Positions 1 to 49,557 of a stretch of DNA of 64,000 nt are shown in pieces. Source of the stretch: Eledone cirrhosa (lineage: Eukaryota); contig OZ024740.1 of assembly GCA_964016885.1 (NCBI GenBank), positions 283,526,001 to 283,590,000 of the forward strand, written 5' to 3'. The position numbers were made by a program, and so were the translations under genes. The first letter of the stretch is position 1. Each line of letters starts with the position of its first letter. The notes beneath the pieces were generated by a model. That model saw only the letters and a program-made list of their open reading frames with translations, did no database searches and had not been told where the DNA came from.

Positions 1-1030
1 TTAACTCTGTTTCCCAGGACTTCATACTTTTGCTCAACAACTGTCTGATGTTATCTGCCATCTTGAAGATCTCTAGGCTTTTGGTTATCCAAGAATGAGG
101 TACCATGTCGAATGCCTTTTTGTAATCTATCCATCCCGATTATTAGGCACGTTTTCCCACAGCTCGTCTCCTTGACGGAGCTGCAGTCCTGGGTCAGGAA
201 AAGACCGAGGGATAGCGCTTGGAAACTGGAATGTCTCCAGGCGCTCACTGCCATCTGCCAGCTGGGCACCAGTATCGGTGGAACATCTACCTCAGCGTTC
301 TATAGAGGACTAGTGGAGCGGAAGAGCGACGACGTTCTCGGAGAGATCCTGGGCGTCGAAGATCAGCTGTTTGCTCTCTTCCGGAGAACTTTCAGCCCAG
401 GGCCTATGGATAACTTCCAAAAATCCCTGGCCTGACAGTGCTACCGGGGAGCGTTGCCGGTTCGAGATAAGCTCTACAGGCACGGAAGTGCCGTTAGCCG
501 AGCTTGTCCGAGATGCGCGCAGTGCGACGAAACCGTCGCGCACGCACTCGTTCAGTGCCCGAGCATTGCTGACTTGTGGAGCTATGTCGAACAGTTGCTG
601 TCGCGTGTAGGACAGATCCGGTTATCGACTGAGTCCATTGTACAGATGGTCTCGCCGTCTTCCTTCGGCAGGCAGTTTTCATCTGCCTGTTGGCCATGGC
701 AAAAGAGATTGTGTGGGGGACAAGGATGAAAGGGTTAAAGACAGACACTTTCCTCATCGGCGAATCCCTAATTAACTTTTTCAAGTTTCAGTTGAAGAGG
801 GGAATCAGCGTGGAGAGGCAAGTGCTGCCTTCTAGCAAGTTTGTTGAAAGGTGGGAAAATGTAGCGAGAATGGTCCGAGTGAACGGGACCGCTCTGAATA
901 TACGCCTATAGTTTGAGAAATGGAAAATTGAGAGAGGGTGCTTGTCCTGGTGGTCAGGGTGGCCGTGGCCTTTTGTGTGGTTTTCGCCACGAGTAACCCT
1001 CGGATGTTTCCCCCCTATTGGGGAATTTTT
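1..1030 (+). mobile_element. L1/Tx1-like non-LTR retrotransposon, decayed ORF2 C-terminus plus 3' UTR
   Basis: Broken ORFs 112-435, 454-729 and 690-911 give LPVRDKL..CPRCAQCDETVAHALVQCP, a zf-RVT/CCHC knuckle typical of L1/Tx1 ORF2; stops and frameshifts present; homologous to 1157-1775 and 17805-18756. Confidence 0.8.
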
Positions 1031-1156
1031 CATTGTTTCAATTTTCATTTTTATTGTTTATATATATATATGTTTCTATCTCTTTTTTTTCTTTTCTTAT
1101 ATAAATAATAAAAATCTTTACACGCACAAAACCCACATCTTATCGTCCTGTACCGG

Positions 1157-1775
1157 AGCGACGAAACCGTTCTGCACGCACTCGTCCAGTGTCCGTGCAT
1201 TACTGACTTGTGGAGTTATGTCGAACAGCTGTTGTCGCGTATAGAACGGATCCGGCTATCGGCCGAGTCCATAGTGAAGATCGACCCGCCGCCTTCTTTT
1301 GTCTGGTGGCAGTAGCGAAAGAGGTTGTATGGTGGACGAGGTTGAAAGGACTGAAGACAGACACTTTTCTCTTCGGCCAATCCCTCATCAACTTTTTTAA
1401 ATTTCACTTGGAAATAAAATGAGGGTGGAGAGATAAGTGCTGTCGCCCAGTACATTTGCTGAAAGGTGGGTGAATGTGGCGAGAATGGCCCATGTGAGTG
1501 GGCCTACTCTGATCATGCGCCTGTAGGCTGGTGAATTTGAGGAGGAGAGGGGTGCCCTTCTCGAGTTCCCTCGAAGCGTCGGGTGGTTCAGGATGGGTGG
1601 GGTAGCTCAGTAAACGCCGGGTGGTTATCCTCCCTATTGGGCAATTTTCATTGTTGTATTTTTCTTGTTTATTGTTATTGCTTTCCTATTTTTTATCAGA
1701 TTTTTGTGTAAAACCCCACTGTCCCCGTAAATTGTATTGTCCCCTATATGTCGGCCCTTGTGGCCAATAAATGAA
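1157..1775 (+). mobile_element. Second 5'-truncated L1/Tx1-like 3' end
   Basis: Repeats 524-910 (CLVAVAKEVVWWTRLKGLKTDTFLFGQSLINFFKFHL); ends GCCCTTGTGGCCAATAAA, followed by (ATT)n/(AGT)n. Confidence 0.8.
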
Positions 1776-1802
1776 ACCAGTATTATTAATTATTATTATT
1801 AT

Positions 1803-1855
<53 letters not shown>

Positions 1856-2466
1856 TTTTAGTTGCTGTTGCTTTTGCTTTTTCTGTTGTTACTGTTAATA
1901 TTCTATTGTATAAATCAAATTTCAGCTATAATAACATACATATGCCAGTAACATGTCGTTCGCACGTTACCTTTATGACCTCATCTAGCTGTAATCGAAT
2001 CATATGACGAAATTTAATACATGGCCTGTACATAGGGCTTTGTTGTCTCCGTTGATCATCAAATATTGCAAATACTACTCAGAACAGAACAAGGATGGTT
2101 TGACTGGACGTTTGACATTGACCTACAATTTCGACGGGTTATATTTCCCTTACGTTTTAGCTCTTTTATCCTGTTCTATTACTTGCTAGTATACCAAGTA
2201 CACATCGTTTACATGCACATAACTGTAACTCATATATAAATCATATGTATCTAGCGTTTACTATAAAATTATTTTATGAGTAGTGTGAAATAGAGCCGAT
2301 ATTTCACATCCCACCTGAGTTTCCTGTCTGCTTTCGGCACCTACGTATTCCATCTGGTATAGGCTTATTTTCATCATGAACGTATACGCACTGGGGTTGA
2401 TATGATCGAGTAAATCAATACGATACACCAATATGGCCGCAGTATAAAGATTGAAATCAGTAGACA

Positions 2467-3699
<1,233 letters not shown>

Positions 3700-3838
3700 G
3701 TAGATAAATCTAACAAAATATACGGTAGTGTCCAATCCGTATGAAGAACTCAATGTAATCCAAATATAGAAGATATCATGAAAAGAGACGATGCATTCAA
3801 AAATTTACGATAAAAATCATAAAAAAACAGATTCAAGA

Positions 3839-4075
3839 TAAATTAATAAAAACAATGAAATAAACACAAAGAACAAATTCTTTATATTAAAAAATTCATC
3901 ATTTTACGATCGTTTCTGGGATGTATATGTTCCTCTGATAATTTGTAATATTTTTACATAGATCTATATGATATACATACCAACACACATATACATCCCA
4001 GAAACGATCGTAAAATGATGAATTTTTTAATATAAAAACTTGTTCTTTGTGTGTATTTCATTGTTTTTATTAATT

Positions 4076-4077
<2 letters not shown>
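3839..4077. repeat. Inverted repeat (about 91-bp arms, 56-nt spacer) carrying the 3' half of a hammerhead
   Basis: 3839-3930 is the near reverse complement of 3987-4077; right arm reads GAAA-CGATCG-TA at 4001-4012 (palindromic stem III plus cleavage triplet); no CUGANGA. Confidence 0.75.
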
Positions 4078-4106
<29 letters not shown>

Positions 4107-4107
4107 T

Positions 4108-4175
<68 letters not shown>

Positions 4176-4273
4176 CATGTATATATACATATATATATAC
4201 GTTATTCCGGGTTGAAACGGAGGTAACCACAGTAAGTAAGGTACTCAATACATAGCAGAGTATAACAGTTTTA

Positions 4274-4334
4274 ATATAGATGAGATTCTACAGGACTAAT
4301 GAATGAAACAGTTCTAGTCCTGTAGAATCTCATC

Positions 4335-4338
<4 letters not shown>
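4274..4338. repeat. Perfect hairpin of about 24 bp
   Basis: TATAGATGAGATTCTACAGGACTA / TAGTCCTGTAGAATCTCATCTATA with a 16-nt loop containing GAAAC; abuts (TA)n. Confidence 0.8.
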
Positions 4339-4412
<74 letters not shown>

Positions 4413-4431
4413 CATACATATATATATATAT

Positions 4432-4512
<81 letters not shown>

Positions 4513-4579
4513 CATATATATATATATAAATATATATATATACATACATATATTTATATATATATATACATATATATAC

Positions 4580-4611
<32 letters not shown>

Positions 4612-4628
4612 TTATGTATATATATATT

Positions 4629-4847
<219 letters not shown>

Positions 4848-4923
4848 GTATATATGTATGTATATATATGTATATGTATATATATATCAATTATATAACT
4901 CTCGGCAAAATCGAAGAGGTATG

Positions 4924-4969
4924 TAGTCTTGACAACCACTTACAATTGAGAAACGGTCACCGTCGATTA
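4924..4969 (+). ncRNA. Type I hammerhead ribozyme, U3-A8 core variant
   Basis: Stem I TAGTC/GATTA, core TTGACAA 4929-4935, GAAA 4950-4953, stem III CGG/CCG, GUC site at 4964; distal stem CTCGGCAAAA/TTTTGCCGAG; stem II weak. Confidence 0.55.
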
Positions 4970-5256
4970 GTCCCCTTTGCTTTTGCCGAGACTAGATATG
5001 TGACGTTAGTCACTACTTATAAATTCATGGCGAATGGCCTTTAAAATGTTTTTAAATAAACGTACAGTATATTATTAAATATACTATACGTACATTCATA
5101 TATACATCGCCCTTTCAGAGCACTAATGCTCATTTCTAATGTTTGCCCGACCGGCAATCACTCTGTATGTTAATGAGTTTAAACAGCTCATAAACATAAC
5201 TGCAATTCTATAAGAATCCAGGTTCTATAACTTTAGGCAAAAGCGAAGACGTATGA

Positions 5257-5300
5257 AGTCTTGACAACCACTTACAACTGAGAAACGGTCACCGTCGATT
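5257..5300 (+). ncRNA. Type I hammerhead ribozyme, U3-A8 core variant (second copy)
   Basis: TTGACAA 5261-5267, GAAA 5282-5285, CGGtcaCCG-TC site at 5296; distal stem GGCAAAAGC/GCTTTTGCC. Confidence 0.55.
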
Positions 5301-5568
5301 ACTATGCTTTTGCCATGACTAAATATGTGCCGTTAGACACTACTTTAAAATTCATAGCGAATGGCCTTCAAAATGTTTTTAAATAAACATAGAGTATATT
5401 TATTAAATATACAATACGTGCATTCATATATATATATATATATATTATAAAATAATATATATGACTTGAGGGCGGCCGATCGAGGTAGAAGCTGCTAAAT
5501 GTTCGGTCGCCCTCATGTCTCAGATTTTGCCATGGATTTTGCCTATTTATTCCTTTGTTATATTTCAA

Positions 5569-5626
5569 ATACCTGATGATGTCACCGGATTCATACTGAA
5601 TCCGGTCATTGAAATGATCATAGTAT
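5569..5626 (+). ncRNA. Minimal type I hammerhead ribozyme
   Basis: ATAC-CTGATGA(5573-5579)-stem II ACCGGATTCA/TGAATCCGGT-GAAA(5611-5614)-TGATCA-TA^GTAT; stem III palindrome ATGATCAT. Confidence 0.85.
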
Positions 5627-5837
5627 AATAAACCTTTCAAGGATTTACACCAGTCCAGCCTCCTGTTATTTTATAATAATTAACTCCGCACTTGCACCAC
5701 CAACTATACAAACGAAGACGGGTGAGTTGCATTACGTTGAGTGCTCTCCATAATATTACATCGAGGTTGACCATACGGAATGACCAGTTCTATCCAGTAG
5801 TAAACCAACAAACCTACATAAATAAATATAAATATAT

Positions 5838-5944
<107 letters not shown>

Positions 5945-6206
5945 GTGCATACATTTGAGACATACGAATACTGAAGTCCTACAAAGCATTGGGCGAAGAT
6001 TCACCAGTATAGGCTCAACATGTTGTACAACTGACAGCAGAAAGCAATAGCTTACCCATATAGTTATTGTTTACCGATAGGTGTAATAGAACAGCAATAA
6101 ATAATTGGCAGAAGTATTGCTACTACTACCGACACTGGTAAAAAAAAAAATGACATGAAACTCTGGCTATCAACCAAATACAAATGTTGGTAAACATTAT
6201 TAAAAT

Positions 6207-6392
6207 GGTGGATTGGCAGTATCCGTGGAGGGTCGGACGCCATGCTTTCCAGCATAGTTACGTCCCTTTACGATCTGAGTTCAAATCCCGCCGAGGTTGA
6301 CTTTGCCTTTCATCCTTACGGGGTCGATAAAATAAAGTACTAGTAATGCACTGGGTAATTGCTGGCCTTGTGCCTAAAGTAGAAACAATTAT
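6207..6392 (+). mobile_element. tRNA-derived SINE family A
   Basis: TGGCAGTATC (A-box-like), GAGTTCAAATCCC (B-box), core GCCTTTCATCCTTACGGGGTCGATAAAATAAAGTAC, end GTAGAAACAATT; about 20 copies in the window. Confidence 0.85.
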
Positions 6393-6699
6393 TAAAATAG
6401 TAGTAAATTGTCCTTATGTTTCTATGACGTTCGAATTTTAGTTTCTATTGTGTCACGATGTATACAGACAACATTCAATACTTTGCTGATATCAACATTT
6501 CGAATTATATACCTGATATCTTTCTCTTGACCTTTCATGCCATTCAACAAACTACACCACAGTAAAGACTAGGTTTCACTTCAGAGTTGTAAAACAATTC
6601 AACTGTGAACAATAGTTAGTCTACCAGACACAAGTATGACCTACATTGCAACGCTGCTCACATGTCTGGTCTGAGCCAATGTTGCTGCTAGGAGTCTTG

Positions 6700-6852
<153 letters not shown>

Positions 6853-7003
6853 ATATATTTATATATAAATATATATATATATATATATAAGTTGAAAAAA
6901 AATGAAAACGAAATTTCATTTCTCACTCTTAGTATGGCACTTACTTAAATGTAAGTATGTATGTATACGTACATACATATATGTATACAGACGTACAGTA
7001 GCA

Positions 7004-7055
<52 letters not shown>

Positions 7056-7201
7056 TACATACAGGTACACATACATATATGCACGCAACAGTTTAGCGGA
7101 CGCTTATTATAACGCCGCTTTGTTCGTTTGTAAACAAACTGAACAGCCTGAATTTATGCCATACGTCTGTATACATATATGTATGTACGTATACATACAT
7201 A

Positions 7202-7295
<94 letters not shown>

Positions 7296-7308
7296 AGTGT
7301 GGGTGTGT

Positions 7309-7397
<89 letters not shown>

Positions 7398-7407
7398 GTA
7401 AAAAGAA

Positions 7408-7607
7408 NNNNNNNNNNNNNNNNNNNNNNNNNNNNNNNNNNNNNNNNNNNNNNNNNNNNNNNNNNNNNNNNNNNNNNNNNNNNNNNNNNNNNNNNNNNNN
7501 NNNNNNNNNNNNNNNNNNNNNNNNNNNNNNNNNNNNNNNNNNNNNNNNNNNNNNNNNNNNNNNNNNNNNNNNNNNNNNNNNNNNNNNNNNNNNNNNNNNN
7601 NNNNNNN
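7408..7607. other. Assembly gap (200 N)
   Basis: N run between (GT)n and (TA)n tracts. Confidence 1.
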
Positions 7608-7876
<269 letters not shown>

Positions 7877-7879
7877 ATA

Positions 7880-8160
7880 AGCAAAAGGGATATTTAATTT
7901 GTTGGTAATTCAACAAATATAAATGTTTATAACTGATTCAAAGCACTCGACAGTTTTTCCGGAGTATAATATTCAATGATATTAAATAAATGGAAACTAT
8001 ATTTATAAAACCATATTTATTCTATTATATATATTTCAAGGGTACCAAAACTTTGGTACGCTCTCATCAGATAAAATACAAAGTTTGTTTTATAAATATT
8101 GACATAACCAGGAAGAAGATCTTAACGGTTCAAGTTTTTCCTGGATAGTAAAGGAAAGAA
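7880..8160 (-). mobile_element. AT-rich HHR-bearing non-coding element (family F3)
   Basis: Shares AAATGGAAACTATATTTATAAAACCATATTTATT and AAAGCACTCGAC with 35472-35937, 36160-36358, 50714-51150; partial sharing with 61270-61427; flanked by (TA)n. Confidence 0.8.
8018..8078 (-). ncRNA. Minimal type I hammerhead ribozyme (F3)
   Basis: Minus strand TATTTTAT-CTGATGA-gagcGTACCAAA gt TTTGGTACcctt-GAAA-TATATA-TA^ATAGAATA; 8-bp stem I with one GU pair. Confidence 0.85.
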
Positions 8161-8346
8161 GGGAACGAGAAGAAATATATATATATATATATGTGTGTAT
8201 GTATATATATATATGTATGTATACATACATTGTTGGGAGGGTCATGCTGTCAATAAAAACATGCACCTGTGGAATTTCACTTCAATTTATTAGAAATTTC
8301 CAGTTGCTTAGTTTAATAGCCTGTATGGTTATTTATATGTTTATTG

Positions 8347-8387
8347 TCAAAGTTCTTTCGCCACACATTCCGTGACCTCCTCAGTGA
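8347..8387 (-). ncRNA. Minimal type I hammerhead ribozyme (F4), in element 8230-8410
   Basis: Minus strand TCA-CTGAGGA-gGTCAC..GTGGC-GAAA-gaac-TT^TGA; homolog of 37274-37318. Confidence 0.7.
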
Positions 8388-8493
8388 GTAATTTCTTATT
8401 TTCTGTCTCTCCTTTGTTCTGTACTACACCATCTTATTTTTGTGAGCTATGTTGTATACTTGGGCTGTGCATGCGTTACATCGGCGCGCGCGC

Positions 8494-8620
<127 letters not shown>

Positions 8621-8637
8621 TGTGTGTGTGCGCGTGC

Positions 8638-8718
<81 letters not shown>

Positions 8719-8989
8719 TGTGTGTGTGTGTGCTTCCTATCGAGAGTAGAGGGAGTTGACAAAGATATTATAATTTGCATTTGAACCAATTAATAGTGGA
8801 ATAGAGATGATTGACAGGGCAAATATTTGATTATTGATCTGAGCAATTCTTGGATGACCGAATATGTTTAATTAACGTCTGCAATCAAAAATAAGTTGGT
8901 TTATTGCAGTTATACCTAATTGTAGAGTTATTATTGCGATTGATATTTATGTTTAGAGTTCTTTATTGTGTTGTTAGTGATGTTGTTGT

Positions 8990-9752
8990 TGGTGGTGGTA
9001 GTGGTGGTTGTGGTGGTGGTGGTGGTATTGGTGGTGGTAGTGGTGGTTGTGGTGGTGGTGATGGTATCGGTGGTTGTGGTGGTGGTTGTGGTGGTGGTGG
9101 TGGTATTGGTGGTGGTGGTGGTGGTATTGGTGGTGGTGGTGGTGGTATTGGTGGTGGTTGTGGTGGTGGTGGTGGTATTGGTGGTGGTAGTGGTGGTTGT
9201 GGTGGTGGTGATGGTATCGGTGGTTGTGGTGGTGGTTGTGGTGGTGGTGGTGGTATTGGTGGTGGTGGTGGTGGTATTGGTGGTGGTGGTGGTATTGGTG
9301 GTGGTTGTGGTGGTGGTGGTGATATTGGTGGTGGTGGTGGTGGTGGGTGATGGTGGTGGTGGTGGTGGTATTGGTGGTGGTGGTGGTATTGGTGGGTGAT
9401 GGTGGTGGTGGTGGTGGGTGGTGGTGGTGGTGGTATTGGTGGTGCTAGTGGTGGTGGTGGTGGTGGTGGTGGTGGTGGTGGTAGTGGTATTGGTGGTGGT
9501 GGTGGTGGGTGATGGTGGTGGTGGTATTGGTGGTGGTGGTGGTGGGTGATGGTGGTGGTGGTGGTGGTATTGGTGGTGGTGGTGGTATTGGTGGTGGTGG
9601 TGGTATTGGTGGTGGTGGTGGTGGTGGTGGGTGGTGGTGGTGGTATTGGTGGTGCTGGTGGTGGTGGTGGTGGTGGTGGTGGTGGTAGTTGTAGTTATTG
9701 GTGTCGTTGTTATTGCTGGCTGTGTTTGTGCTGATGGTGGGGCTTGTAGTGA

Positions 9753-9798
<46 letters not shown>

Positions 9799-9940
9799 GC
9801 GGTGGTGAGGTGGTGATGGTGGTGGTGGTGGTGGTTGTGGTGATGGTGGTGGTGGTGGTGGTGGTCGTCGTCGTCGTCGTCGACGTCGTGACCGTGGTCG
9901 TCGTCATGGTGGTATTGGTGGTGGTGGTGTTGTTGGTGGT
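8990..9940. repeat. (GGT)n/(GTT)n trinucleotide complex
   Basis: Direct inspection; explains the poly-Gly/poly-Val ORFs. Confidence 0.95.
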
Positions 9941-10294
9941 GAAGTTGTCACGTGTGTTGATACAACGTAGTAAAGATTCTGTGATGTTATGTCAGGAGTT
10001 GTTATTCATGTTTATGTTACTGTCTATGTTATTGCTAGTGTTGCTTCCACTGTTGTTGTTTTACTGTAGTTATTATTGCGATGGATACTGGCACATCACA
10101 GTAATGTTTTAGCTATTTCATACTAGTATTTGTTGTTGCTGTTGTTTCTGAAGTTAAGGTCGTTTTTGATATTGTTGCTGTTGTTGATTTTTAGTATGTA
10201 TGTATGTATGTATGTATGTACGTACGTATGTATGTATGTATGTATGTATGTATGTATGTATGTATGTATGTACGTACGTACGTACGTACGTATG

Positions 10295-10328
<34 letters not shown>

Positions 10329-10353
10329 TGTATGTATGTATGTATGTATGTAT

Positions 10354-10588
10354 GTGCTTCACGGCACAGGTATTGTTTTATATCTGGAGATCTCTCTGCA
10401 CTTGTCGTCACATGGTACCATGGGACCCACCACTATGTGTCAGTAATTGTCACAAATGTAGTGTTTGTACCAGAGTTTTCAAGTCGCTGGCTGGACTAAA
10501 AAGTCACACTCGTTCAGCGCATCGGTAGGGGTTCTCCTACATGGATATAAAGTAGTGGCCGTACTCGAAAACAAGTTGGCAGCCACCA
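10354..10588 (+). mobile_element. RTE-like non-autonomous element, 3' end, in (TATG)n
   Basis: Encodes CSVCTRVFKSLAGLKSHTRSAHR* (terminal C2H2 typical of RTE ORF ends); 3' stem-loop then (ATGT)n. Confidence 0.75.
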
Positions 10589-10714
10589 TGTATGTATGTA
10601 TGTATGTATGTATGTATGTATGTATGTATGAATGTATGTACGTATGTATGTATGTACGTATGTATGTATGTACGTATGTATGTACGTATGTATGTATGTA
10701 CGTATGTATGTATG

Positions 10715-11116
10715 TTATCTCTTTCTCTTAATTTCGAGTATATTTTTGACCGGCCACCTTCCTAAGGGTAAGGTTGTAAAAGAAAAGAAATTGTCATCCC
10801 TTGAATCGCAAGAATGTTTTGCAAATTTTGAAGGTGCCAGCTATCGCAGCCATTTGTAGACTATCGTTTAGGGAGCTGTGCTCTTTGTCCGCAAATCCAA
10901 GTTCAGTTATACATTGGTCCAAGCGGGTTGGTATATAACCCGTAGCTCCAATAATGATGGGTATGAAGCTAAAGGTGTATCTTGGATACTGGATTTGTAA
11001 ACTCCTCATCAATGGTCCGTAGATGTCCTCCTTCTCCTGTATTTTTCTGACAACGTTTACATCAAGTGGGCAGCTGATCCCACAACAGAACACGTTTTCA
11101 ATGTGTGGTCGCACAA
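10715..11116 (-). mobile_element. R4/Dong-like RLE LINE, 5'-truncated, in (CATA)n
   Basis: ISCPLDVNVVRKIQEKEDIYGPL..IPIIIGATG; near-identical to 13112-13515. Confidence 0.8.
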
Positions 11117-11624
11117 TGTATGTATGTACGTATGTACGTACGTATGTATGTATGTACGTATGTATGTATGTACGTATGTATGTACGTATGAATGGATGTA
11201 TGTATATACGTATGTATGTACGTATGTATGTATGTATGTATGTATGTATGTATGTATGTATGTATGTATGTATGTACGTATGTATGTATGTATGTATGTA
11301 TGTACGTATGTATGTATGTATGTACGTATGTATGTATGTATGTATGTATGTACGTATGTATGTATGTATGTATGTATGTATGTATGTATGTTCTTCTGGT
11401 TCACAAAGTTTTCCCAATAGAGAGAGAGTCGGTTTCTAACATAGACACAAGACTCTCTCATTGGAATTTACACATCAACTAGGTAGATTATGTATGCATG
11501 CATGTGTAGATATGGATGTTATTGTATGTGTGAATGTGTATGTTTTGAGTTGTATGTGTGCATGTGTATATGCTTTGTATCTGCATGTGTATATGCTTTG
11601 CATGTGTATATGCTTTGTATATGC

Positions 11625-11745
11625 AGTTATTAGATGTAAAATATTTGGAATGTTTTACATACTTTTACTGTTCCATTAATGGATTGTACTTGTAATTTCC
11701 TAACTAGTTGTGTTCTTTCTGTTCCTGTGAAGCCTAGCTTCTCAG
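11625..11745 (-). mobile_element. Diverged R4/Dong-like extreme 3' fragment
   Basis: KLGFTGTERTQLVRKLQVQSINGTVKVCKTF parallels ELGFADK..SLQMAAIAGTFKICKTF. Confidence 0.6.
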
Positions 11746-11956
11746 TATGTATGTATGTATGTATGTATGTATGTATGTATGTATGTGTGTATGTATGTGT
11801 GTATGTATGTGTGTATGTATGTATGTATGTATGTACGTACGTACGTACGTACGTATGTATGTATGTATGTATGTATGTATGTATGTATGTATGTGTGTAT
11901 GTATGTATGTATGTATGTATGTATGTATGTATGTATGTATGTATGTATGTATGTAT

Positions 11957-12280
11957 GTGAAGGTGCATGGCTTTTTGGTTAGGGTATTCGGCTCACAATC
12001 TTAAGGTCATGAGTTCGATTCCCCTTGGCACGTTGTGTCCTTGAACAAGACACTTTATTTCACATTGCTCCAGTCCACTCAGCTGGCAAAAATGAGTTGT
12101 ACCTGTAATTGGAAGGGCCAGCCATGTCACATTATGTGTCACGATGAATCTCCCTGAGAACTACGTTAAGAATACGCGTGTCTGTGGAATGCTCAGACAC
12201 TTGGACATTAATTTCAGGAGCTGGTTGATCTGTTGATCGAATCAATGGAAAACTCTTCGTCGTAACCGAAGGAGTGCCAG
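11957..12280 (+). mobile_element. tRNA-derived SINE family B, tail type 1
   Basis: GTGAAGG..TGGC..TGGTTAG head, GAGTTCGATTCC B-box, GTGTCCTTGAACAAGACACTTTATTTCAC domain; same tail at 57099-57416 (-). Confidence 0.85.
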
Positions 12281-26602: not shown

Positions 26603-29128
26603 ATGAAGGCGCATGGCTTAGTTGTTAGAGCATTGGGCTTGCAATCGATAGGTTGTGAGTTCGGTTCTGCGTTCTATCCTTGAGCAAGATACTTTATTTC
26701 ACGTTGCTCCTTTTACTCAGATGTAGAAATCATTTGCGACGTTACTGGCGCCAAGCTGTATCGGCCATTGCCTTTCCCTTGGGCAACAATCGGTGGCGTG
26801 AAGAGGGGAAGCTGGTATGCATAGGCGACTGCTGGTCCTCCACTAACAACCTTGCCCGGACTTGTGCCTCAGAGGGAAACTTTCTTGGTGCATGGTCTTC
26901 CACTAACAACCTTGCCCGGACTTGTGACTCAGAGGGAAACTTTCTTGGTGCATGGTCTTCCATTAACAACCTTGCCCGGACTTGTGCCTCGGGGGGAAAC
27001 TTTCTTGGTGCATGGTCTTCCATTAACAACCTTGCCCGGACTTGTGCCTCGAGGGGAAACTTTCTTGGTGCATGGTCTTCCATTAACAACCTTGCCCGGA
27101 CTTGTGCCTCGGAGGGAAACTTTCTTGGTGCATGGTCTTCCACTAACAACCTTGCCCGGACTTGTGCCTCAGAGGGAAACTTTCTTGGTGCATGGTCTTC
27201 CACTAACAACCTTGCCCGGACTTGTGCCTCGGGGGGAAACTTTCTTGGTGCATGGTCTTCCACTAACAACCTTGCCCGGACTTGTGCCTCAGAGGGAAAC
27301 TTTCTTGGTACATGGTCTTCCACTAACAACCTTGCCCGGACTTGTGCCTCAGAGGGAAACTTTCTTGGTGCATGGTCTTCCACTAACAACCTTGCCCGGA
27401 CTTGTGCCTCAGAGGGAAACTTTCTTGGTGCATGGTCTTCCACTAACAACCTTGCCCGGACTTGTGCCTCGGGGGGAAACTTTCTTGGTGCTTGGTCTTC
27501 CACTAACAACCTTGCCCGGACTTGTGCCTCAGAGGGAAACTTTCTTGGTGCATGGTCTTCCACTAAGAGCCTTGCCCGGACTTGTGCCTCGGGGGGAAAC
27601 TTTCTTGGTGCATGGTCTTCCACTAACAACCTTGCCCGGACTTGTGCCTCAGAGGGAAACTTTCTTGGTGCATGGTCTTCCACTAACAACCTTGCCCGGA
27701 CTTGTGCCTCAGAGGGAAACTTTCTTGGTGCATGGTCTTCCACTAACAACCTTGCCCGGACTTGTGCCTCAGAGGGAAACTTTCTTGGTGCATGGTCTTC
27801 CACTAACAACCTTGCCCGGACTTGTGCCTCAGAGGGAAACTTTCTTGGTGCATGGTCTTCCACTAACAACCTTGCCCGGACTTGTGCCTCGGGGGGAAAC
27901 TTTCTTGGTGCTTGGTCTTCCACTAACAACCTTGCCCGGACTTGTGCCTCAGAGGGAAACTTTCTTGGTGCATGGTCTTCCACTAAGAGCCTTGCCCGGA
28001 CTTGTGCCTCGGGGGGAAACTTTCTTGGTGCATGGTCTTCCACTAACAACCTTGCCCGGACTTGTGCCTCAGAGGGAAACTTTCTTGGTGCATGGTCTTC
28101 CACTAACAACCTTGCCCGGACTTGTGCCTCAGAGGGAAACTTTCTTGGTGCATGGTCTTCCACTAACAACCTTGCCCGGACTTGTGCCTCGGGGGGAAAC
28201 TTTCTTGGTGCTTGGTCTTCCACTAACAACCTTGCCCGGACTTGTGCCTCAGAGGGAAACTTTCTTGGTGCATGGTCTTCCACTAAGAGCCTTGCCCGGA
28301 CTTGTGCCTCGGGGGGAAACTTTCTTGGTGCATGGTCTTCCACTAACAACCTTGCCCGGACTTGTGCCTCAGAGGGAAACTTTCTTGGTGCATGGTCTTC
28401 CACTAAGAGCCTTGCCCGGACTTGTGCCTCGGGGCGAAACTTTCTTGGTTCATGGTCTTCCACTAACAACCTTGCCCGGACTTGTGCCTCGGGGCGAAAC
28501 TTTCTTGGTGCATGGTCTTCCACTAACAACCTTGCCCGGACTTGTGCCTCAGAGGGAAACTTTCTTGGTGCTTGGTCTTCCACTAACAACCTTGCCCGGA
28601 CTTGTGCCTCGGGGCGAAACTTTCTTGGTGCATGGTCTTCCACTAACAACCTTGCCCGGACTTGTGCCTCAGAGGGAAACTTTCTTGGTGCTTGGTCTTC
28701 CACTAACAACCTTGCCCGGACTTGTGCCTCGGGGGGAAACTTTCTTGGTGCATGGTCTTCCACTAACAACCTTGCCCGGACTTGTGCCTCAGAGGGAAAC
28801 TTTCTTGGTGCATGGTCTTCCACTAACAACCTTGCCCGGACTTGTGCCTCGGGGCGAAACTTTCTTGGTGCATGGTCTTCCACTAACAACCTTGCCCGGA
28901 CTTGTGCCTCAGAGGGAAACTTTCTTGGTGCTTGGTCTTCCACTAACAACCTTGCCCGGACTTGTGCCTCGGGGGGAAACTTTCTTGGTGCATGGTCTTC
29001 CACTAACAACCTTGCCCGGACTTGTGCCTCAGAGGGAAACTTTCTTGGTGCATGGTCTTCCACTAAGAGCCTTGCCCGGACTTGTGCCTCGGGGGGGAAC
29101 TTTCTTGGTGTAAATCCCATGATCATTT
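26603..29128 (+). mobile_element. SINE B (tail type 2) containing an internal tandem array
   Basis: tRNA-like head and CCTTGAGCAAGATACTTTATTTCACGTTGCTCC at about 26603-26710 run directly into the array. Confidence 0.8.
26833..29110. repeat. 60-bp minisatellite, 38 units
   Basis: Unit TGGTCTTCCACTAACAACCTTGCCCGGACTTGTGCCTCRGRGGGAAACTTTCTTGGTGCA in exact 60-bp register. Confidence 0.98.
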
Positions 29129-36590: not shown

Positions 36591-36916
36591 GAAAGTGAGG
36601 GGGTTTTTTTAAATGGAAAAAGACGAGATGTCCTTACCGAGTGAAACCTATAAGGAAAAAAATCAAATCGAAAATGCAACTGGAGTCTTTTTTTTTTTTT
36701 AATATATTTACTTGGTTTCTTTACCGGTTTCACAGTTCTTGTGCTTTTCAAAAGTAGGATTGAGATGGAGGGTTTGTGATTTTTCTCCTATCTGGTTGCT
36801 GTTCTAATGTTACTTCTGTTTTATATGGAAAAAAAGTGGCTCGAAATGCTAAATGTTTCTAGAAAATTAATTTGGTTGGTTGATGACTGTCATGTGAATA
36901 AGTATAACAAATTTTG

Positions 36917-37150: not shown

Positions 37151-37273
37151 GGGGATTCCTTTCTTTGTTTCTGTGCCTTTCCTTTCTTCTGTCCTACGCC
37201 ATTTTGTTTCTGAGAAACAAAATGGCGTAGGACAGATGAAAGGAAAGGCACAGAAACAAAGAAAGGAATCCCC

Positions 37274-37318
37274 AGTCACTGAAGAGGTCACAGAGTGTGT
37301 GACGAAAGGACTATGACT
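37274..37318 (+). ncRNA. Minimal type I hammerhead (F4)
   Basis: AGTCA-CTGAAGA-gGTCAC agagtgt GTGAC-GAAA-ggac-TA^TGACT. Confidence 0.85.
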
Positions 37319-37538
37319 ATATATAAACAACTATCTGGTTGTGGAACCAACCAACCAACCAGAAATTTATAAGTTTGTAGATTTGTAAATTTATAAATTT
37401 ATAAATATATAATAAATTGAAGTGAAAGCAACTGGTGCGTGTGTTTCTTATTGGCAACATGACCCTCCCAAAGTATAACAATATCGGTTTCAACACACGA
37501 TTTCAGATAAAGAATCTTGCTAAACAAATTCAGAAACG

Positions 37539-49412: not shown

Positions 49413-49494
49413 TATTCAAAATATTAATAATATTAATAATATTTAAAATATTAATAATATTAATAATGAAAAATATTCTCATAATCAAAATATA

Positions 49495-49557
49495 TATTTT
49501 ATTATACATATTTCAAAGGTACTATGGTGTTTAAGTACGTTTTCATCAGACAAAATA
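49495..49557 (-). ncRNA. Minimal type I hammerhead (F3)
   Basis: TATTTTGT-CTGATGA-AAAcGTACT..AGTACcTTT-GAAA-TATGTA-TA^ATAAAATA. Confidence 0.8.

What the first reader, a model, noticed from the sequence alone, without database searches (positions are those of the whole stretch)
4895..5430. Dimeric 332-nt unit with a compensatory U3-A8 hammerhead core (UUGACAA)
Seen: two diverged repeats both keep TTGACAA and GAAACGGtcaCCGTC exactly, while flanks drift; the distal stem I pairing is retained in both (CTCGGCAAAA/TTTTGCCGAG and GGCAAAAGC/GCTTTTGCC). Predicted sites at 4964 and 5296 are 332 nt apart. Known: C3-G8 is a tertiary Watson-Crick pair and a U3-A8 swap is tolerated. Inference: a variant-core retrozyme that canonical CUGANGA searches would miss. 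Stem II is weak (about 2 bp), so these copies may be inactive.
Basis: partly seen in the sequence, partly recalled or inferred. Interest (0 to 1): 0.72.

Follow-up and report, generated by a model that had tools for sequence, protein, structure and literature searches.

The report
Decayed retrozyme with double-variant hammerhead
This is a worn copy of a 332-base non-coding repeat scattered through an animal genome, likely pasted into TA repeats by Penelope-type jumping-gene enzymes, whose hammerhead RNA motif, predicted to cut itself only weakly, carries an already published U-A core swap plus a C-A mismatch at a normally fixed G-C pair.

Summary
In detail: two type I hammerhead motifs with a U3-A8 core, cut sites at 4964 and 5296. 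The insert is 1.66 units (4891-5435) inside (TA)n, not a full dimer. It belongs to a dispersed non-coding family with Penelope-type ends (partial tandems, inverted copies, two fixed 3' ends about 26 nt apart). U3-A8 is the founder state (0 of 41 matches have C3). A sister family has C3-G8, and every stem covaries. Stem II is sound in the family and broken only in these two copies, which no longer favour the fold. U3-A8 in Penelope-like hammerheads is published (PMC4209133). U.U is published; I did not find C.A in four searches. Cleavage is untested, published mutagenesis suggests it is slow, and no copy ends pile up at the cut. The scan already noted U3-A8 retrozymes and a C.A core on other DNA of this genome. 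Verdict: a modest variant of a known kind.

The parts
4891..5435 (+). Whole insertion: 1.66 units (partial tandem) of a 332-nt non-coding Penelope-type repeat, flanked by (TA)n on both sides
4891..5222 (+). Unit 1 (complete, 332 nt; 92.8% identical to the family majority)
5223..5435 (+). Unit 2 (partial; ends at unit position about 217, the commonest 3' end of the family; 89% identical to the family majority)
4901..4990 (+). Hammerhead 1 with long stem I. Core U3..A9 4929-4935, C10.1 4936, stem II 4937-4948 (third pair broken by a G to T change at 4946), A11.1 4949, GAAA 4950-4953, stem III to 4963, predicted cut after C4964
5236..5314 (+). Hammerhead 2. Core 5261-5267, C10.1 5268, stem II 5269-5280 (G to C at 5278), A11.1 5281, predicted cut after C5296; 5-nt deletion in stem I
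4965..5296 (+). Predicted 332-nt monomer between the two cut sites (36% GC; as a circle it folds at z -5.3 against 100 shuffles)
5108..5133 (+). 'Tail' segment between the two fixed 3' ends of family copies (unit positions about 217 and 243); inferred to lie between two reverse-transcription start sites
   Evidence: PMC11167929
4335..4887 (.). (TA)n tract upstream, the inferred target site

Best explanation
The region is a decayed 1.66-unit copy of a dispersed 332-nt non-coding repeat with a covarying type I hammerhead motif (U3-A8, C10.1.A11.1), likely copied into (TA)n by the enzymes of a Penelope-like retrotransposon from an RNA predicted to cut itself only slowly. Shown here: family, end pattern, target, covariation, decay of the window copies. 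Inferred: a source copy is transcribed across the unit junction. The borrowed reverse transcriptase-endonuclease nicks (TA)n and starts copying at two fixed internal sites about 140 and 170 nt past the cut site. It copies through the ribozyme for more than one unit, from an uncut tandem RNA or a ligated circle. Selection on source RNAs kept the fold and the 3-8 pair but let 10.1-11.1 drift, which fits a slow ribozyme that is useful but not rate-limiting. The two window copies would not cut.
For: Family: 94 matches from the 40 of 1,884 candidates scored. Ends: 28 of 31 classifiable inverted pairs (54 pairs seen) have one short and one long 3' end, P 2e-6. Long ends are followed by (TA)n in 41 of 52 and 13 of 15 pieces, against 14% background. 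This matches the tail and two-start-site model in PMC11167929 and the anatomy in PMC8557442. Core: none of 41 exact matches has C3; 38 have U3 and 40 have A8. A sister family, identical at 253 of 332 columns, has C3-G8. In 119 distinct aligned segments pair 3-8 is U-A 74, C-G 39, U-G 1, other 4; 87% of structure cells pair, against 32-53% for slid controls; 0 of 500 shuffles reach the covariation score. The family majority folds into the hammerhead as its minimum-energy structure, while the window copies give 0.2% and about 1e-6 of the ensemble. GIY-YIG domains are abundant in the genome (10,596 candidates, 150 scored).
Against: No cleavage, transcript or circle was observed. No autonomous partner sharing this end sequence was found. 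5' truncations do not pile up at the cut: 2 of 96 and 3 of 73 pieces start within 3 nt of it, 0 of 28 new loci, and the single genome-wide pattern match is an internal deletion. Related sequences can beat the shuffle control without structure, and many aligned loci were picked by core-containing patterns. The weak-activity step rests on other ribozymes, not on this one.
Confidence: 0.72

Rival explanations
1. The family ribozyme is efficient in vivo, rescued by loop 1-loop 2 contacts, by pairing of two hammerheads through stem III, or by the Penelope protein, and the element spreads through an abundant 332-nt circular RNA.
For: The loop 2 last A (117 of 120) and the stem I bulge U (117 of 120) are kept, like the U/A contact in PMC2632901. 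Stem III is near-palindromic: duplex -13 to -16 kcal/mol against hairpin -2 to -4. The predicted circle is strongly self-paired (z -8.7). The axolotl U.U hammerhead cuts better as a dimer and yields circles. The anole Penelope-like hammerhead needs protein.
Against: In a full double-mutant scan of a type III hammerhead only the G-C swap rescued 3-8; all other changes there were low (PMC9901934). U.U is described as the best-tolerated mismatch at 10.1-11.1, so C.A should be worse. Loop 2 starts with a pyrimidine, not the purine of the RNnA motif. No truncation peak at the cut.
Confidence: 0.17
2. The motif in the C.A subfamilies is a catalytically dead relic, kept only as a fold that the Penelope protein binds or simply inherited, and copies are made from uncut tandem transcripts.
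For: Two core departures at once. Hammerhead mutants did not affect insertion in vitro in PMC11167929. 8 of 9 frog retrozyme dimers did not cut in vitro. One copy lacks the whole core.
Against: The catalytic bases stay nearly fixed across subfamilies (G5 118, G12 118, A13 119, A14 120 of 120; position 17 is G in only 1) while stems are rewired. The 11 core bases carry about half the expected substitutions.
Confidence: 0.09
3. A satellite-like local duplication or chance motif with no RNA stage.
For: The two window copies alone could share the motifs by descent (P about 0.07).
Against: Dispersed copies on many contigs, fixed 3' ends, variable 5' ends, inverted partners, and compensatory changes in all stems. 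Pattern controls give 6 against 437 and 0 against 1,950 matches.
Confidence: 0.02

Closest known systems
Metazoan non-LTR retrozymes (Cervera and de la Pena 2020, PMC7229834; Li, Clavereau and Pollet, bioRxiv 10.64898/2026.07.22.740005)
   Same: Non-coding unit of about 330 nt, GC under 45%, one type I hammerhead per unit with 6-bp proximal stem I and a 6-nt loop 2, strongly self-paired monomer, proposed mobilisation by Penelope-like elements. Axolotl HHR_Amex2 has a U.U mismatch at the base of stem II.
   Different: U3-A8 core and C.A at 10.1-11.1. Copies seen in this subfamily are dispersed partial tandems of at most about 1.7 units with inverted partners, not long arrays. Expression and circles are not shown.
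U3-A8 hammerheads in the pLTRs of Schistosoma mansoni Cercyon Penelope-like elements (Cervera and de la Pena 2014, PMC4209133)
   Same: Same U3-A8 covariation in a Penelope-associated type I hammerhead.
   Different: Those are minimal motifs with almost no stem III, an extra base after A9 and a paired 10.1-11.1. This one has a full stem III, a long stem I, no open reading frame and a mismatch at 10.1-11.1.
Natural hammerhead core variants (Perreault et al. 2011, PMC3088659)
   Same: Natural U3-A8 and U10.1-U11.1 variants are both described.
   Different: C10.1.A11.1, and five amplified states of this pair in one element clade, are not in the text I read; its Figures 5, S6 and S7 could not be seen.
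Poseidon element PAc of the green anole (Frangieh et al. 2024, PMC11167929) and (TA)n-targeting Neptune elements (PMC8557442)
   Same: Two fixed 3' ends bounding a short tail, AT-rich targets, partial tandems, inverted 5'-truncated partners, hammerhead upstream of the tail.
   Different: Those are autonomous and encode RT and GIY-YIG. This unit encodes neither, and its partner was not identified.

Membership tests
Type I hammerhead ribozyme | Core bases U4 G5 A6, A9, G12 A13 A14, A15.1-U16.1 and H17 in type I order | tested here: met
   Each is kept in 110-120 of 120 aligned segments; position 17 is C 71, U 46, A 2, G 1
Type I hammerhead ribozyme | Watson-Crick pair between positions 3 and 8 | tested here: met
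   U-A 74, C-G 39, U-G 1, other 4; U3-A8 in both window copies
Type I hammerhead ribozyme | Three stems around the core, supported by covariation | tested here: met
   86-94% of cells paired per stem, with two-sided changes in each. Stem II is broken in the two window copies
Type I hammerhead ribozyme | G10.1-C11.1 at the base of stem II (highly conserved, not absolute) | tested here: not met
   C in 37 and A in 40 of 41 matches; only 12% of cells paired at this position across the clade
Type I hammerhead ribozyme | Loop 1 U / loop 2 3' A tertiary contact | tested here: inconclusive
   Both bases are kept in 117 of 120, but loop 2 lacks the 5' purine of the RNnA motif; the contact itself was not tested
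Type I hammerhead ribozyme | Match to an Rfam hammerhead model | tested here: not met
   No hammerhead family at E up to 10 for window 4880-5440 or for intact copy L036
Type I hammerhead ribozyme | Site-specific self-cleavage | not testable with these tools
   Needs an assay; the indirect test by 5' truncation gave no peak
Metazoan non-LTR retrozyme | Non-coding unit of 150-450 nt, low GC, one type I hammerhead per unit, head-to-tail | tested here: met
   332 nt, 36-37% GC; no frame of 120 codons within the unit; head-to-tail junctions in many loci
Metazoan non-LTR retrozyme | Dimers to long multimers | tested here: inconclusive
   Only partial tandems of up to about 1.7 units were seen in the fetched loci of this subfamily
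Metazoan non-LTR retrozyme | Expressed as linear and circular monomer RNA | not testable with these tools
   No RNA data could be laid on it
Penelope-like element insertion | 5' truncation, partial tandem, inverted 5'-truncated partner, tail at one end, microsatellite target | tested here: met
Autonomous Penelope-like element | Open reading frame with RT and GIY-YIG endonuclease | tested here: not met
   None in the unit; an endonuclease profile built from this genome does not score the unit
Non-autonomous Penelope-like element | End sequence shared with an identified autonomous partner | tested here: inconclusive
   Not found among 30 endonuclease loci fetched of 150 scored

The most novel reading that the evidence does not exclude
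C10.1.A11.1 is an unreported working state of the hammerhead's second most conserved pair. It arose in at least two element families of this genome and works even together with U3-A8. The clade is then a natural allelic series (G-C, A-U, A.A, U.U, C.A crossed with C3-G8 or U3-A8) in which ribozyme speed is tuned down or rescued by the Penelope protein, and a whole class of animal hammerheads is invisible to current models.
Probability: 0.25. Interest if true: 0.6.

Novelty: new variant of a known kind. Interest (0 to 1): 0.36.

Why it matters
What the hammerhead does for Penelope-like elements and retrozymes is still open: in the one in vitro system it was not needed for insertion (PMC11167929). 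This clade offers matched natural ribozymes on one scaffold that differ at two core pairs, each amplified to many copies. Measuring their rates would show how little cutting such an element needs in order to spread, and would widen hammerhead search models. The headline feature, U3-A8, is already known, and this locus itself is a decayed copy.

Tried and rejected
Rfam: no hammerhead match in window 1-12000, in 4880-5440 or in an intact copy; the hits were microsatellite-driven miRNA models. RNA expression: no RNA holder listed; this is no evidence either way. Endonuclease remnant: unit positions about 262-322 translate to a short peptide that looked by eye like a GIY-YIG C-terminus (resemblance recalled), but a profile from 30 endonuclease loci of this genome did not score it; not claimed. 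Autonomous parent: not found. Cut-site footprint in 5' truncations: none. 'C.A is a specific wobble replacing G-C': weakened, because A.A, U.U, A-U and G-C subfamilies also amplified. Number of 3-8 swaps: the tree (120 of 209 candidate rows, 121 columns, bootstrap not settled) separates the subfamilies but cannot tell one swap from two. Chimeric tandems: units within a locus differ at fewer diagnostic sites than units between loci (1.1 against 2.2 of 5), so no sign of routine template mixing. An inverted partner upstream of the window copy (4846-4886) lies in the (TA)n tract and was taken as low-complexity noise. A hammerhead review (PMC2271363) was not held, so measured rates for 10.1-11.1 mismatches remain unseen.

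Full report
Observation. Each copy reads stem I, U3 U4 G5 A6 C7 A8 A9, C, three stem II bases, a 6-nt loop, three bases, A, GAAA, a 4-bp stem III with a 3-nt loop, and GUC. Predicted cuts follow 4964 and 5296. The insertion spans 4891-5435: one whole 332-nt unit plus the first 217 or so positions of a second, with (TA)n on both sides. The copies match at 190 of 212 aligned positions, so identity at the 22 motif bases has P about 0.07 on its own.

Family and anatomy. A search of the own genome (3.0 Gb) gave 1,884 candidates; the 40 scored gave 94 matches on many contigs. Long pieces average 88.6% identity to the family majority (66 pieces), so the family is old. Copies are 5'-truncated partial tandems, often with an inverted truncated partner. 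Their 3' ends fall mostly at unit positions about 217 and 243. Of 54 head-to-head inverted pairs in this family and its sister, 31 had both ends classifiable, and 28 of those had one short and one long end. Long ends are followed by (TA)n in 41 of 52 and 13 of 15 pieces, against 14% of background positions. This is the anatomy described for Penelope-like elements (PMC8557442, passages). The short tail matches the interval between two reverse-transcription start sites in the anole element (PMC11167929, parts 1-2 of 4). The genome holds many GIY-YIG domains (10,596 candidates, 150 scored, 30 fetched). Several fetched ones carry their own U3-A8, U.U hammerhead about 450 nt downstream, but none shares this family's ends. 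The family also occurs in a run labelled as a second organism.

The 3-8 pair. With positions 3, 7, 8, 10.1 and 11.1 left free, 41 exact genomic matches showed U3 in 38, C3 in none and A8 in 40 (counted by hand). U3-A8 is therefore the founder state. A sister family (1,903 candidates) is identical at 253 of 332 columns, has the same tail and target, and carries C3-G8 with rewired stems. I aligned 120 ribozyme segments: 118 of the 123 that passed anchors outside the ribozyme (212 hits examined; I dropped one truncated row and four duplicates or near-duplicates), plus L036 and window copy 1. Pair 3-8 is U-A 74, C-G 39, U-G 1, other 4. Overall 87.4% of cells pair, against 31-53% when partners are slid, and 0 of 500 shuffles reach the covariation score; the count of pairs with two-sided changes is not above the shuffles (71 of 500). 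Many of these loci were picked with core-containing patterns, so the proportions are not genome proportions. In 28 of 29 loci chosen only by upstream sequence, the 11 core bases carried 14 substitutions against 27-33 expected (P 0.0002-0.006). The TTGACAA heptamer alone gave P 0.05-0.26.

Stem II and pair 10.1-11.1. The family majority folds into the hammerhead as its minimum-energy structure (-47.8 kcal/mol; 38% of the ensemble under the strict constraint). The window copies, each changed at the same stem II G, give 0.2% and about 1e-6. What remains unusual is C opposite A where G10.1-C11.1 is normal: C in 37 and A in 40 of 41 matches. A pattern fixing this state found 437 matches (control 6), with stem II varying in compensated ways such as CAC/GUG, CGC/GCG and CGU/ACG. 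Leaving the pair free gave 1,950 matches (control 0). Among the first 100 listed I counted G-C 34, A-U 26, A.A 13, U.U 9, C.A 8 and other 10; not all 100 were checked for homology to the unit. A barely related family with a C3-G8 core (12,190 exact matches) shows U.U in 85 and C.A in 11 of the first 100. The position is therefore relaxed rather than switched to one special pair. A tree on sequence 3' of the ribozyme separates these subfamilies but is too weak to order the events.

How it likely works. Shown: dispersal, end pattern, target, covariation, decay. Inferred: a source copy is transcribed across the junction; a borrowed Penelope-type protein nicks (TA)n, starts at one or both internal sites and copies through the ribozyme. 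The window insert (545 nt) spans both cut sites, so its template was either uncut tandem RNA or a circle. The predicted circle is highly self-paired (z -8.7 for the majority, folded one base short at 331 nt; z -5.3 for the window unit). I expect slow cutting. In a double-mutant scan of a type III hammerhead only the G-C swap rescued 3-8 (PMC9901934, passages and a supplement search; heat-map values not seen). U.U is called the best-tolerated mismatch at 10.1-11.1 (PMC3088659, passages and section 8), and G10.1 helps bind metal (PMC7151607, passages). 5' truncations show no peak at the cut. Against a dead relic, the catalytic bases, the loop 2 last A and the bulge U stay nearly fixed while stems change (PMC2632901, abstract and section 24).

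What is known. PMC4209133 (parts 1-2 of 4 and supplement file 2, parts 1-2 of 3; figures not seen) reports U3-A8 in Cercyon elements with about 1,300 hits and calls G10.1-C11.1 highly conserved. One of its 56 aligned motifs has an extra A before GAAA, a possible precedent for a mismatch there; the text does not keep which row. PMC7229834 (passages and sections 14-15) defines metazoan retrozymes and describes a U.U variant that cut 22% in an hour as a monomer. The 2026 preprint (parts 1-3 of 5; supplements closed) derives retrozymes from Penelope-like ends and found 8 of 9 dimers inactive. I did not find C10.1.A11.1 in four searches. The library lacks most subscription papers, and unseen figures and supplements may hold it. 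Earlier notes of this scan report U3-A8 retrozymes of 316-320 nt, a C.A core in another family and paired ends in this same genome. They call the host an octopod, which I did not test.

Verdict. A real feature with a sound hammerhead reading, in a decayed copy of a Penelope-dependent retrozyme-type family. The flagged swap is published. The relaxed 10.1-11.1 pair is the one part I could not find in print, and its function is untested. New variant of a known kind; interest 0.36.

Noticed in passing
window 36692-36751, minus strand: Copy of another U3-A8 hammerhead family with a short palindromic stem III and G at 10.1, seen in 8 other places among the fetched loci.
   Followed up: partly
window 37269-37340 plus; about 8325-8384, 8011-8070 and 49490-49549 minus: Four further hammerhead-like motifs with canonical C3-G8 cores, from other repeat families.
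   Followed up: no
window 26833-29110: 38 tandem copies of a 60-nt unit (95% matches), open in three reading frames of 760-860 codons; a coding repeat or a minisatellite.
   Followed up: no
window 5467-5600: A different, very high-copy repeat starts just after the insertion (far higher summed depth than the unit in run X1).
   Followed up: no
L052-L079, about 450 nt after the endonuclease domain: An endonuclease-encoding Penelope-like family (Neptune-like by its cysteine motif, label from recall) carries a U3-A8 hammerhead with U.U at the base of stem II.
   Followed up: partly
L172-L201 and G000 C1: A young family with 12,190 exact hammerhead matches, units of about 470-540 nt in short arrays, has subfamilies with U.U and with C.A at 10.1-11.1. 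It may suit cut-site and circle tests better than this old family.
   Followed up: partly
L256:1480-1570: A family copy with an internal deletion of the whole ribozyme core.
   Followed up: partly
L202:2200-5900: One insertion of a sibling subfamily repeated three times with its flanks at about 1.53-kb spacing, a later local duplication.
   Followed up: partly
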